Shown here in pieces: positions 59,201 to 62,200 of a stretch of DNA of 64,000 nt. Positions within the stretch are counted from its first letter, which is position 1. Each line of letters opens with the position of its first letter. The position numbers were made by a program. The DNA lies in assembly GCF_056746865.1 (NCBI RefSeq), contig NZ_CM163382.1; one strand, 5' to 3'.

Positions 59201-62200
59201 TGCGCGTATTCAACAGGCGCTTACCCTGAACGACAATCTTACGCTGCCGGGCAATATTGGCTGGCTGGATTATGATCCGGTTTGTGATTGTCAGGATTTT
59301 GGCGATCTGGTGCTAGAAAGCGTCGCGATAACCCAAACTGACGCCGATCATGCCGATGCCGTTGTGCGCTTTCGTATCTTTAAAGATGATAAAGAAAAGA
59401 CCACGCAGACACTGAAAATGGTGGCGGAAAATGGTCGTTGGGTCATTGACGATATTGTCAGCAATCATGGCAGCGTCTTACAAGCAGTTAATAGCGAGAA
59501 TGAAAAAACGCTGGCCGCTTTAGCTTCGTTGCAAAAAGAACAGCCGGAAGCCTTTGTTGCCGAACTCTTTGAACATATTGCTGATTATAGCTGGCCGTGG
59601 ACGTGGGTGGTTTCCGACTCTTACCGCCAGGCGGTTAATGCCTTCTATAAAACCACCTTCAAGACGGCCAATAATCCCGATGAAGATATGCAAATAGAAC
59701 GGCAATTTATTTACGACAATCCGATCTGTTTTGGCGAAGAGTCGCTATTTTCACGCGTTGATGAAATTCGAGTCCTGGAGAAAACCGCCGATTCCGCCCG
59801 CATTCATGTTCGTTTTACGCTGACCAATGGCAACAACGAAGAGCAAGAACTGGTTTTACAGCGGCGCGAAGGCAAGTGGGAAATCGCTGATTTTATCCGC
59901 CCGAACAGCGGCAGCCTACTTAAGCAGATTGAGGCAAAAACTGCCGCCAGATTAAAGCAATGAGCTGAATTAAATAACAATTAGCCGGAACAATAAATAA
60001 AAGGGAACACTATATGAAAACGATTTTCACCGTGGGAGCTGTTGTTCTGGCAACCTGCTTGCTCAGTGGCTGCGTCAATGAGCAAAAGGTCAATCAGCTG
60101 GCGAGCAATGTGCAAACATTAAATGCCAAAATCGCCCGGCTTGAGCAGGATATGAAAGCACTACGCCCACAAATCTATGCTGCCAAATCCGAAGCTAACA
60201 GAGCCAATACGCGTCTTGATGCTCAGGACTATTTTGATTGCCTGCGCTGCTTGCGTATGTACGCAGAATGATAAAAAAATCCCCGGTAGCGTGTCAGTTG
60301 CCGGGGATATTTTTTAACGTCCAACCGCCGCTTTAGGCCGTTTCTTCGCACCAGCATTCACCGGACGAGATTGCGTAGACGACGCTTTTTTTGCCGTAGC
60401 AGGCGTCTGACGCTGGGTCGCCATCGGCGTATGTTTCGTCAACGCCGGACGGGTATTGCGGTTCTGGCGACGAGCTTCACGCATCTCTTCAATGGTTGGC
60501 GCAGGCACTAAGCAATCGCGACGGCTGCCAATCAGATGCTTTTTGCCCATCGCTTCCAGCGCCTGGCGGATTAACGGCCAGTTTGCCGGATCGTGGTAAC
60601 GCAACAACGCTTTATGCAAACGACGCTGTTTGTCGCCCTTCGGTACGAAGACGTCTTCGCTCTTATAACCAATCTTCGCCAGCGGGTTTTTCCCGGTGTA
60701 ATACATGGTGGTTGAGTTCGCCAGCGGCGACGGATAGAAGTTCTGCACCTGGTCGAGGCGGAAGCGGTGCTTTTTCAGCCACAGCGCCAGATTCACCATA
60801 TCTTCATCACGCGTACCGGGGTGCGCGGAGATGAAATAGGGGATCAGATACTGCTCTTTACCTGCCTGTTTTGAGTAAGTATCGAACAGCTCTTTAAAGC
60901 GGTCATAGCTGCCCATGCCCGGCTTCATCATCTTCGATAACGGCCCTTCTTCGGTATGTTCCGGGGCAATCTTCAGATAACCGCCGACGTGATGGGTCGC
61001 CAGTTCTTTGATATAGCGCGGATCTTCTACGGCTATGTCATAGCGCACACCAGAGGCAATCAGGATCTTTTTAATGCCTTTCAGATCACGCGCACGGCGA
61101 TAGAGGTTGATCGTTGGTTCGTGGTTCGTGTCCATGTGCGGACAAATATCCGGATAAACGCACGACAAACGGCGACAAGTTTGTTCAGCGCGTGGCGATT
61201 TGCAGCGCAACATATACATGTTGGCAGTTGGCCCACCAAGATCGGAAATCACGCCCGTAAAACCTGGAACGGTGTCGCGGATCGCTTCGATCTCATTAAT
61301 GATCGAATCTTCGGAACGGCTCTGAATAATGCGCCCTTCGTGCTCGGTGATAGAACAGAAAGAGCAGCCGCCAAAGCAGCCACGCATAATGTTGACCGAA
61401 AAACGGATCATTTCGTAAGCCGGAATACGGGCATTGCCATAGGCCGGATGTGGCACGCGCTTGTATGGCAGCGCAAAAACGCTGTCCATCTCTTCGGTAG
61501 AAAGCGGAATAGCAGGCGGGTTGATCCACACATAGCGGTCGCCGTGTTTTTGCATCAATGCGCGGGCACAGCCTGGGTTGGTTTCGTGGTGCAGAATACG
61601 CGAAGCATGGGCGTACAGCACTTTATCGCCCTTCACTTTCTCGAAAGAAGGCAGCAACACGTAGGTTTTTTCCCACGGTTTCGGGCGCGGTGGCTGCACG
61701 GTTACGGCTTTGGCTTCCTGCTTTTTCGGTGCCACCGGTTTGTTATCCGCGCACGGCAAATCTTCACCATACGGATGCGGGATTGGGTCGATTTTTCCAG
61801 GGGTATCAAGACGGGTGGAATCCACGCCGCTCCAGCCAGGCAGCGCCTCTTTCACGATAATCGCGGTATTACGCACATCGCGGATTTCACTAATTGGCTC
61901 GCCCATCGCCAGACGATGCGCCACTTCCACCAGCGGACGCTCACCGTTACCAAACATCAGCATGTCGGCTTTCGAATCCACCAGCACGGAACGGCGCACG
62001 GTATCGGACCAGTAATCATAATGCGCGGTACGGCGCAGACTAGCCTCAATACCGCCGAGGATCACCGGTACATCTTTCCACGCCTCTTTACAACGCTGGG
62101 TATAAACCAGTGTGGCGCGATCCGGGCGCTTACCCGCGACGTTATCCGGCGTGTAGGCATCGTCATGACGTAAACGGCGATCGGCGGTATAACGGTTGAT

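What the first reader, a model, noticed from the sequence alone, without database searches (positions are those of the whole stretch)
60014..60271. yqhH encodes an Lpp (Braun lipoprotein) paralog lacking the C-terminal lysine
The 85-aa lipoprotein shares lipobox and heptad-repeat coiled coil with Lpp but ends ...[10 protein letters not shown], with cysteines and no terminal Lys, so it cannot be cross-linked to peptidoglycan the same way. It may form mixed trimers or serve as a non-tethering variant.
Basis: partly seen in the sequence, partly recalled or inferred. Interest (0 to 1): 0.3.

Follow-up and report, generated by a model that had tools for sequence, protein, structure and literature searches.

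The report
yqhH: lysine-less paralog of Braun's lipoprotein
This is the already annotated E. coli gene yqhH, a small outer-membrane lipoprotein related to Braun's lipoprotein (Lpp) that lacks the terminal lysine Lpp uses to bond covalently to the cell wall; the relationship and the missing lysine are already published, and its function has not been tested.

Summary
Window 60014-60271 (+) is an 85-aa ORF identical to E. coli YqhH. It has a lipobox (LSG|C20) and matches Lpp at 51% identity over 67 residues (E 3e-24). It matches Pfam LPP above threshold and the NCBIfam YqhH equivalog over its full length.

The coiled-coil core is co-linear with Lpp: 13 of 14 a/d positions are kept, including the alanine zipper. 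From residue 71 the C-terminus is replaced by a 15-residue tail, [16 protein letters not shown]. This tail has two cysteines and no lysine; the last Lys is mature residue 39.

The gene is not decaying. It is present in 5415 of 5426 complete E. coli genomes, and omega is 0.01-0.07 for coil and tail.

A 2025 preprint from the Collet laboratory states the same facts and the same hypothesis, that YqhH forms complexes with Lpp and modulates crosslinking. Nobody has tested it.

My best reading is a conditionally expressed, non-tethering, cysteine-bearing Lpp variant. It is transcribed from the BglJ-RcsB-activated yqhGH operon.

One side observation may be new. The dkgA-ygiQ interval is a variable islet carrying one to three Lpp-like genes; all but one of the tails seen lack a terminal lysine.

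Interest is low.

The parts
60014..60271 (+). yqhH coding sequence (85 codons plus TGA)
   Evidence: ORF list; NCBIfam YqhH equivalog 197.7 bits over the full length; RefSeq annotation; exact match to YQHH_ECOLI
60001..60006 (+). Shine-Dalgarno-like AAGGGA, 7 nt upstream of the ATG
   Evidence: Read directly from the sequence
60014..60070 (+). Signal peptide, residues 1-19, cleaved by signal peptidase II before Cys20
   Evidence: Sequence; aligned with the Lpp signal peptide; AF2 helix 2-18
60062..60073 (+). Lipobox L17-S18-G19-C20. The residue after the lipidated Cys is Val, not Asp, so Lol sorting to the outer membrane is expected.
   Evidence: Sequence; Cys20 is invariant in alignments A1/A2; the +2 sorting rule is established knowledge
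60086..60223 (+). Lpp-type coiled-coil (alanine-zipper) domain, residues 25-70
   Evidence: Pfam LPP match 25-70; PDB Lpp-56 match 24-70; 13/14 a/d positions hydrophobic and co-linear with Lpp; AF2 continuous helix with pLDDT about 94
60224..60268 (+). YqhH-specific C-terminal tail, residues 71-85 ([16 protein letters not shown] region). It replaces Lpp's ...MATKYRK and has no Lys.
   Evidence: Alignment A1; conserved across Escherichia with omega 0.02-0.07; predicted helical with pLDDT 76-85; its hydrophobic face is out of the a/d register
60239..60256 (+). TGCCTGCGC TGCTTGCGT = Cys76-Leu-Arg-Cys79-Leu-Arg (mature C57, C60), a 9-bp tandem duplication relative to the Salmonella ortholog
   Evidence: DNA alignment with a 9-bp indel; protein alignment
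60279..60308 (.). Bidirectional intrinsic terminator shared by the convergent genes yqhH and ygiQ: a 12-bp stem, A-run upstream, T-run downstream
   Evidence: Terminator scan; RNA fold -26.9 kcal/mol, z -6.4; sub-threshold Rfam hits here only reflect the hairpin
59037..59963 (+). yqhG, upstream operon partner: a 308-aa secreted protein with two DUF3828 (NTF2-like) stretches
   Evidence: ORF; Pfam DUF3828 1.8e-45; listed as the yqhGH transcription unit in PMC3950696; 50-bp gap to yqhH with no promoter-like site on the + strand
58838..59036 (+). dkgA-yqhG intergenic region holding the BglJ-RcsB-activated yqhG(H) promoter. Its position was not mapped here.
   Evidence: PMC3950696: promoter-lacZ fusion of this intergenic region activated by BglJ-RcsB, with a predicted binding site

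Best explanation
yqhH encodes a functional, selectively maintained paralog of Braun's lipoprotein. Shown by sequence: a signal peptidase II signal peptide and lipobox; Val at position +2, so outer-membrane sorting is expected; a 50-residue coiled-coil stalk co-linear with Lpp with the same hydrophobic/alanine core; and a 15-residue replacement tail with Cys57 and Cys60 (mature numbering) and no lysine. Inferred: the protein is anchored in the inner leaflet of the outer membrane and forms an Lpp-like parallel trimer. Because it lacks the C-terminal Lys that the L,D-transpeptidases LdtA/B/C acylate, it exists only as a 'free', non-peptidoglycan-bound form. Its exposed tail cysteines are oxidised in the periplasm to intermolecular disulfides. 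Cys57 sits at the position of the Salmonella LppB cysteine, which does exactly this. [quoted passage not shown] When YqhH is made, it either forms homotrimers or co-assembles with the vastly more abundant Lpp. In both cases it adds outer-membrane stalks that do not tether, which locally lowers covalent OM-peptidoglycan coupling.
For: Identity and family.

Core conservation: 13/14 a/d positions including A38/A42/A45. There are no indels between the lipobox Cys and residue 70 in any family member. No repulsive g-e' pairs arise in YqhH/YqhH or YqhH/Lpp combinations. The AF2 monomer is a single helix from 23 to 84 that runs through Pro52.

No lysine in the last 27 residues.

Not a pseudogene: omega is 0.01-0.07 for coil and tail against Escherichia clades and E. 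albertii. The gene is in 5415/5426 complete E. coli genomes, and 30/30 sampled are annotated as intact.

Operon and regulation: PMC3950696.

Cysteine precedent and the same hypothesis for YqhH: preprint 10.1101/2025.11.13.688167 and PMC12681736. Both show that LppB forms Cys-Cys dimers. The preprint also shows that LppB forms heterotrimers with Lpp that reduce crosslinking.
Against: I found no experiment on YqhH itself, so localisation, oligomeric state, redox state and any effect on Lpp crosslinking are all inferred.

Identity to Lpp is only 51%. LppB, which is shown to mix with Lpp, has a coil reported to be strongly homologous to Lpp's, so heterotrimerisation is less certain for YqhH.

The tail's hydrophobic face (Y54, C57, L58, L61, Y64, A65) lies about 180 degrees away from the a/d stripe. 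Asp56 and Arg59 would fall in the core if the register continued. The distal end therefore cannot simply extend the Lpp-type bundle, and it may instead bind something else.

Lpp is the most abundant E. coli protein (established knowledge). A weakly expressed paralog would change bulk tethering very little.

The strong conservation of the tail and the operon with yqhG point towards a specific function of its own rather than mere dilution of Lpp.

The second cysteine is absent from the Salmonella ortholog.
Confidence: 0.6

Rival explanations
1. YqhH acts on its own, as homotrimers only, and the conserved tail is a specific binding module. It would be displayed at about the distance of the peptidoglycan layer from the outer membrane, for a partner such as the co-transcribed periplasmic protein YqhG, peptidoglycan (non-covalently) or an L,D-transpeptidase. 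Any effect on Lpp would be incidental.
For: The tail is as strongly constrained as the coil (omega 0.02-0.07). Its amphipathic face is off the coiled-coil register, leaving an exposed hydrophobic stripe. yqhH is paired with yqhG in Escherichia and Salmonella. Paralogs at the same locus keep the stalk but swap tails. The UPEC 'yqhG' phenotypes were complemented with yqhGH, so yqhH may contribute.
Against: An E. fergusonii-like locus and another enterobacterial locus carry the Lpp-like gene without yqhG. There is no interaction data. The core and the g/e positions give no barrier to mixing with Lpp.
Confidence: 0.25
2. yqhH is a silent evolutionary leftover of an lpp duplication with no present function.
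For: I found no phenotype attributed to yqhH alone. Its promoter depends on BglJ, which is H-NS-repressed under laboratory conditions. Rare frameshifted alleles exist (P0045, P0002).
Against: Omega is far below 1 in both coil and tail at dS of 0.2-0.9. The gene is present in 5415/5426 genomes. The lipobox, Shine-Dalgarno sequence and terminator are intact. The tail is conserved from E. coli to E. albertii.
Confidence: 0.05
3. YqhH is still covalently attached to the cell wall or to another envelope component by a different chemistry, for example through an internal lysine or through its cysteines.
For: It has two periplasmic cysteines. One positional homolog in another enterobacterium (P0098) ends in Lys after a Cys.
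Against: The known L,D-transpeptidase reaction uses a C-terminal Lys (established knowledge). YqhH's lysines lie in the rigid coil, far from the distal end. No such linkage is known.
Confidence: 0.05

Closest known systems
Lpp (Braun's lipoprotein, murein lipoprotein) of E. coli; structure 1EQ7
   Same: Signal peptidase II signal peptide and lipobox. An ungapped 51%-identical coiled-coil stalk with the same a/d core and alanine zipper. A conserved D27-R32 g-e' pair. The stalk is the same length up to residue 52.
   Different: Lpp ends ...MATKYRK and is crosslinked through Lys58. YqhH is 8 residues longer and ends ...[14 protein letters not shown], with no distal lysine, two cysteines, a mid-coil Pro33 and a tail whose hydrophobic face is out of register. 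YqhH scores below the NCBIfam cut-off for 'major outer membrane lipoprotein' (83.1 against 108). It is transcribed from a conditionally activated operon, not as the cell's most abundant protein.
LppB of Salmonella enterica (redox-active Lpp paralog, C-terminus -RICK)
   Same: An Lpp paralog with a cysteine at mature position 57. It is proposed or shown to form disulfide-linked oligomers and heterotrimers with Lpp/LppA that lower crosslinking.
   Different: LppB keeps the terminal Lys and is crosslinked by LdtB, though inefficiently. It is tandem to lppA and its coil is reported to be strongly homologous to Lpp's. YqhH has no terminal Lys and a second Cys, and it sits at a different locus (dkgA-ygiQ) with yqhG.
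Other Lpp-like lipoproteins in the dkgA-ygiQ islet (annotated only as 'LPP leucine zipper domain-containing protein' or 'hypothetical protein')
   Same: The same lipobox-plus-stalk architecture with a QQDI(N/D)ALR(P/Q)E motif, and the same chromosomal interval. Nearly all lack a terminal Lys; P0098 is the one exception.
   Different: Their tails differ: ...RWPDGIWAHPPRW, ...CMQRGSPCYHPPRL, ...DDRNSPFSPRL/DVRNSPYKPRL. Most end in P-R-[L/W/Y] rather than YqhH's ...MYAE.

Membership tests
YqhH equivalog (NCBIfam NF007428) | Full-length match above the curated cut-off | tested here: met
   197.7 bits against cut-off 120, residues 1-85 on profile 1-85/85; sequence identical to YQHH_ECOLI
Lpp family (Pfam PF04728, lipoprotein leucine-zipper) | LPP domain above the gathering threshold | tested here: met
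   47.9 bits against 29.1, residues 25-70; PDB Lpp-56 at E 3.4e-10
Lpp family | Signal peptidase II signal peptide with lipobox L-[AS]-[GA]-C | tested here: met
   L17-S18-G19-C20; the Cys is invariant in the family alignment
Lpp family | Continuous heptad (a/d) hydrophobic core with the alanine zipper | tested here: met
   13/14 Lpp core positions are hydrophobic in YqhH, with A38/A42/A45 identical and an ungapped alignment
Lpp family | Parallel homotrimer | not testable with these tools
   Only a monomer model could be obtained (a single helix 23-84), and the structure tool returns no coordinates for multimer geometry
Murein (peptidoglycan-bound) lipoprotein in the strict sense: Lpp ortholog, NCBIfam NF011925 | Match above the curated cut-off for 'major outer membrane lipoprotein' | tested here: not met
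   83.1 bits against cut-off 108
Murein (peptidoglycan-bound) lipoprotein in the strict sense | C-terminal lysine as acceptor for L,D-transpeptidase crosslinking to mDAP | tested here: not met
   The C-terminus is ...MYAE and the last Lys is mature residue 39 of 66. All YqhH orthologs end in E or Y.
Lpp/OprI alanine-zipper lipoprotein subfamily (NCBIfam NF040598) | Match above the curated cut-off | tested here: not met
   36.1 bits against cut-off 43
LppB-type redox-active Lpp | Cysteine at mature position 57 | tested here: met
   Cys at mature position 57. The preprint states that it aligns with LppB Cys57. It is conserved in the Salmonella ortholog.
LppB-type redox-active Lpp | Terminal Lys58 retained (-CK end) and LdtB-dependent crosslinking | tested here: not met
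   No terminal Lys
Outer-membrane lipoprotein (Lol-sorted) | No Asp at position +2 after the lipidated Cys | tested here: met
   Cys20-Val21-Asn22. Actual localisation was not tested.

The most novel reading that the evidence does not exclude
YqhH is the best-conserved member of a so far undescribed clade of Lpp-like 'stalk' lipoproteins that nearly all lack a terminal lysine. They are encoded singly or in arrays of two or three in a variable islet between dkgA and ygiQ across Enterobacteriaceae. They keep an Lpp-length coiled coil but carry interchangeable C-terminal tails: the Cys-containing YqhH type and several types ending in P-R-[L/W/Y], which resemble Lpp's Y-R-K with the acceptor lysine replaced. 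These proteins would act as regulated antagonists of outer membrane-peptidoglycan tethering. They could do so by poisoning Lpp trimers or by occupying L,D-transpeptidases as non-crosslinkable decoys, under envelope or redox stress or in the host.
Probability: 0.15. Interest if true: 0.5.

Novelty: already known. Interest (0 to 1): 0.17.

Why it matters
Covalent tethering of the outer membrane to peptidoglycan by Lpp sets periplasm width, envelope stiffness, vesicle release and antibiotic sensitivity. A conserved paralog that has the stalk but cannot tether is a plausible natural regulator of that coupling. Work on Salmonella LppB in 2025 showed that such paralogs can poison Lpp trimers.

For YqhH itself the facts in this finding are already annotated and published, so only the experimental test is missing. 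The scan adds nothing new about the gene. It adds a modest comparative picture: strong purifying selection on the tail, a tail register that does not continue the coiled coil, and a variable array of mostly lysine-less paralogs at the same locus.

Tried and rejected
1. Anti-phage defence role. PADLOC gave only coiled-coil noise (E above 1e-3).

2. Hidden RNA element. Rfam gave only sub-threshold hits on the terminator hairpin.

3. Unusual allelic divergence of yqhH within 'E. coli'. The dS of 0.43-0.53 against L001/L002 looked high, but the flanking genes dkgA and ygiQ show dS of 0.30-0.46 in the same genomes. These are simply divergent lineages, so I dropped the idea.

4. Published detection of YqhH protein by MALDI at m/z 7306.22 after peroxide/chlorine (PMC6115441). 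The unmodified mature mass is 7606.6 Da, and the lipidated form is heavier. The assignment does not fit, so I do not use it as expression evidence.

5. An interchain CxxC disulfide ring like those at the ends of COMP/matrilin coiled coils (recalled from my own knowledge). With the Lpp register continued, C57 and C60 fall at b and e positions on the same flank and face Phe55/Arg62 of the neighbouring chain rather than a cysteine. The second Cys is also missing in Salmonella. I keep this only as a low-probability option.

6. A linker-fused pseudo-trimer AlphaFold run. I prepared it but did not submit it, because the tool returns no coordinates and neither chain orientation nor Cys-Cys distances could be read.

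7. A plasmid-collection search to identify the organism of locus L012 was uninformative.

8. Mid-coil Pro33 as a marker of the lysine-less clade. Rejected, because canonical Lys-terminated Lpp homologs P0095 and P0110 also have it.
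Full report
**What is there**

Window 60014-60271 (+) is an ATG-initiated ORF of 85 codons plus stop. An AAGGGA Shine-Dalgarno-like sequence sits 7 nt upstream.

A strong hairpin follows at 60279-60308. It has A- and T-runs on either side, folds at -26.9 kcal/mol and has a z-score of -6.4 against shuffles. It serves as a bidirectional terminator for yqhH and the convergent gene ygiQ (60314-62533, minus strand).

The protein is identical to UniProt YQHH_ECOLI, 'uncharacterized lipoprotein YqhH'. RefSeq annotates the locus as yqhC-yqhD-dkgA-yqhG-yqhH-ygiQ-ftsP. The window is E. coli, and K-12 derivatives match at 100%.

**Check of the observation**

- The lipobox is L17-S18-G19-C20.
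- BLASTP against Lpp gives 51% identity and 73% positives over 67 residues without a gap, E 3e-24.
- The similarity is not just the signal peptide. The signal-less crystal construct Lpp-56 (1eq7) matches residues 24-70 at E 3.4e-10.
- Pfam LPP is hit above threshold, 47.9 against 29.1 bits.
- The NCBIfam YqhH equivalog is hit over the full length, 197.7 against 120.
- The models for Lpp proper ('major outer membrane lipoprotein', 83.1 against 108) and for the Lpp/OprI subfamily (36.1 against 43) are not reached. YqhH is therefore a paralog, not an ortholog.

I numbered residues from the lipidated Cys and compared the 14 Lpp core positions: 7, 10, 14, 17, 21, 24, 28, 31, 35, 38, 42, 45, 49 and 52. 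In YqhH these are V, L, V, L, I, L, M, L, I, A, A, A, L and Q. Thirteen of 14 are hydrophobic, and the alanine zipper A38/A42/A45 is identical.

From residue 53 the two proteins diverge. Lpp ends ATKYRK. YqhH continues [14 protein letters not shown]. Mature YqhH has Lys only at positions 6, 20, 29 and 39, and Cys at 1, 57 and 60.

**Is it a live gene?**

Yes.
- The CDS is found in 5415 of 5426 complete E. coli genomes. All 30 records sampled across the ranking annotate it as an intact 'lipoprotein YqhH'.
- Nei-Gojobori estimates against Escherichia clade genomes, E. whittamii and E. albertii give omega of 0.01-0.06 for the coil and 0.00-0.07 for the tail, at dS of 0.2-1.4. One comparison (L003) has no synonymous change in the tail, so its tail omega is undefined. 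The signal peptide is freer, at 0.2-0.4.
- The tail DAQD[YF]FDCLRCLR[ML]Y[AST]E is nearly invariant across the genus.
- Rare frameshift alleles exist (P0045, P0002).

**Anatomy of the tail**

The AlphaFold2 monomer model, built on an 18-sequence alignment, is one helix from residue 23 to 84. It runs through Pro52 (mature Pro33, an f position). pLDDT is about 94 in the coil and falls to 85 and then 76 in the tail.

If the Lpp register continued, Asp56 and Arg59 would sit in the core. The tail's hydrophobic residues (Y54, C57, L58, L61, Y64, A65) would form a stripe roughly opposite the core. The distal end therefore cannot simply prolong the Lpp-type bundle. Either the register shifts around D50-D53, or the stripe is an interface for something else.

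The two cysteines arise from a 9-bp tandem repeat, TGCCTGCGC-TGCTTGCGT. The Salmonella ortholog has one copy and therefore one Cys, which corresponds to mature Cys57.

**Compatibility with Lpp**

All g-to-e' pairs are neutral or attractive in Lpp/Lpp, YqhH/YqhH and both mixed combinations. D27-R32 is conserved, and K20-E25 and R48-D53 are gained. Together with the conserved core, the sequence offers no barrier to mixed trimers. This is permissive evidence only, not positive evidence.

**What the literature already says**

- The Collet-lab preprint 10.1101/2025.11.13.688167 shows that Salmonella LppB forms Cys57-linked dimers, is poorly crosslinked by LdtB, forms heterotrimers with Lpp and lowers Lpp crosslinking.
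- That preprint then states that YqhH is an E. coli Lpp paralog with two C-terminal cysteines. One aligns with the LppB cysteine. [quoted passage not shown] Its function is unclear.
- PMC12681736 confirms LppB C78-C78 dimers and LdtB dependence.
- PMC3950696 lists yqhGH as one unit whose promoter (the dkgA-yqhG intergenic region) is activated by BglJ-RcsB. BglJ itself is H-NS-repressed under laboratory conditions. H-NS control of yqhG itself was not tested.
- PMC6727828 attributes reduced type 1 fimbriation, peroxide sensitivity, higher motility and reduced bladder colonisation to a yqhG deletion in UPEC CFT073. The complementing construct was Tn7::yqhGH, so a contribution of yqhH cannot be excluded.
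- Minor items: yqhH was up after mucin exposure in EHEC. Serum antibodies to recombinant YqhH were found in about 21% of 141 people, and cross-reaction with Lpp is possible.
- A MALDI assignment of m/z 7306 to YqhH does not fit the computed mass of 7606.6 Da for the unmodified mature chain.

**Comparative context (beyond the finding)**

Searches of 5.8 and 1.8 billion proteins found YqhH proper only in Escherichia/Shigella and some Salmonella enterica. They also found a wider set of related lipoproteins in Salmonella, Klebsiella, Kluyvera and unnamed metagenomic enterobacteria. These keep the stalk, share a QQDI(N/D)ALR(P/Q)E motif, and have non-Lpp tails.

The relatives map to the same chromosomal interval.
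- A Salmonella genome carries dkgA, a transporter, two secreted proteins (one DUF3828/YqhG-like) and the YqhH ortholog. It then carries an amidohydrolase, a 270-aa ORF and two further Lpp-like genes with tails CMQRGSPCYHPPRL and DDRNSPFSPRL, followed by ygiQ.
- Escherichia clade genomes, E. whittamii and E. albertii have an extra Lpp-like gene between yqhG and yqhH, with tail ...RWPDGIWAHPPRW.
- Nineteen of 5426 E. coli genomes have an extra one between yqhH and ygiQ, with tail DVRNSPYKPRL.
- An E. fergusonii-like contig has yqhH without yqhG.
- Another enterobacterial contig has, after dkgA, a homolog ending GGCIYGITK.

The Salmonella Lpp survey in PMC12681736 required at least 80% identity and a terminal Lys, so it would have missed these. 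The interval has somewhat lower G+C than its flanks, 46-49% against 51-57%.

**Mechanism, with steps marked**

- Shown by sequence: lipoprotein precursor; Lpp-type stalk; no acceptor lysine; two periplasmic cysteines; co-directional with yqhG across a 50-bp gap with no promoter-like site; its own terminator.
- Inferred: outer-membrane localisation (Val at +2); trimer formation; free-form-only status; DsbA-dependent intermolecular disulfides through the exposed Cys57; either mixing with Lpp or independent trimers.

I put the 'non-tethering, cysteine-bearing Lpp variant' reading at about 0.6 overall. The heterotrimer sub-claim is at roughly one in three. The main rival, at 0.25, is that the conserved, off-register tail is a dedicated binding module and YqhH works independently of Lpp, possibly with YqhG.

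**Verdict**

Novelty is 'already known' and interest is low, at 0.17. The only modestly new material is comparative: the purifying selection on the tail, the register break, the CLR duplication, and the variable array of mostly lysine-less Lpp-like genes in the dkgA-ygiQ islet.

Noticed in passing
L008:5001-5255, 9247-9498, 9586-9816 (Salmonella enterica GCA_011792165.1): Three Lpp-family lipoprotein genes lie between dkgA and ygiQ. None ends in Lys; the tails are DCLRLYSDY, CMQRGSPCYHPPRL and DDRNSPFSPRL. A yqhG-like DUF3828 gene, an amidohydrolase and two unannotated ORFs (302 and 270 aa, no Pfam hit) lie among them. The 2025 survey of Salmonella Lpp variants filtered for a terminal Lys and at least 80% identity, so it would have missed them.
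   Followed up: partly
L003:~3688-3936, L004 same region, L005:~3230-3470: Escherichia clade genomes, E. whittamii and E. albertii carry a second Lpp-like lipoprotein gene between yqhG and yqhH, with tail ...DDAGRWPDGIWAHPPRW (no Cys, no Lys). It is absent from the window, where only 50 bp separate yqhG and yqhH.
   Followed up: partly
L016:4923-5153 (E. coli 2013C-4282, NZ_CP027579.1): Nineteen of 5426 complete E. coli genomes have an additional 76-aa 'LPP leucine zipper domain-containing protein' (tail DVRNSPYKPRL) inserted between yqhH and ygiQ. Several tail classes in this islet end in P-R-[L/W/Y], which resembles Lpp's Y-R-K with the acceptor lysine replaced.
   Followed up: partly
window 59037-59963 (yqhG): The UPEC study that assigns virulence, fimbriation, motility and peroxide-resistance phenotypes to yqhG complemented its mutant with a Tn7::yqhGH construct. 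The contribution of yqhH is therefore unresolved. YqhG has two DUF3828 stretches with weak NTF2-like similarities and evolves faster (omega 0.08-0.16) than its neighbours.
   Followed up: partly
window 60239-60256: The CLRCLR motif is a 9-bp tandem duplication (TGCCTGCGC TGCTTGCGT). It is present in all Escherichia orthologs seen and absent from the Salmonella ortholog, which therefore has one tail cysteine instead of two.
   Followed up: yes
window 60177-60317 (+1 frame relative to the yqhH tail): A 46-aa overlapping ORF supplies the alternative C-terminus seen in rare natural frameshift alleles of yqhH (for example P0045, ...[25 protein letters not shown]...). These alleles read through the terminator hairpin.
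   Followed up: no
L007 (record titled Flavobacterium paronense CECT 8460, 3.3-kb contig): This short contig carries dkgA-yqhG-yqhH-ygiQ fragments about 95% identical to E. coli, with frameshifts. It is almost certainly E. coli contamination or a low-quality contig in that assembly, not a Flavobacterium gene.
   Followed up: no
literature: PMC6115441: A MALDI-TOF peak at m/z 7306.22 was assigned to YqhH in peroxide- and chlorine-treated cells. The computed unmodified mature mass is 7606.6 Da, and the lipidated form is heavier, so the assignment looks wrong.
   Followed up: yes
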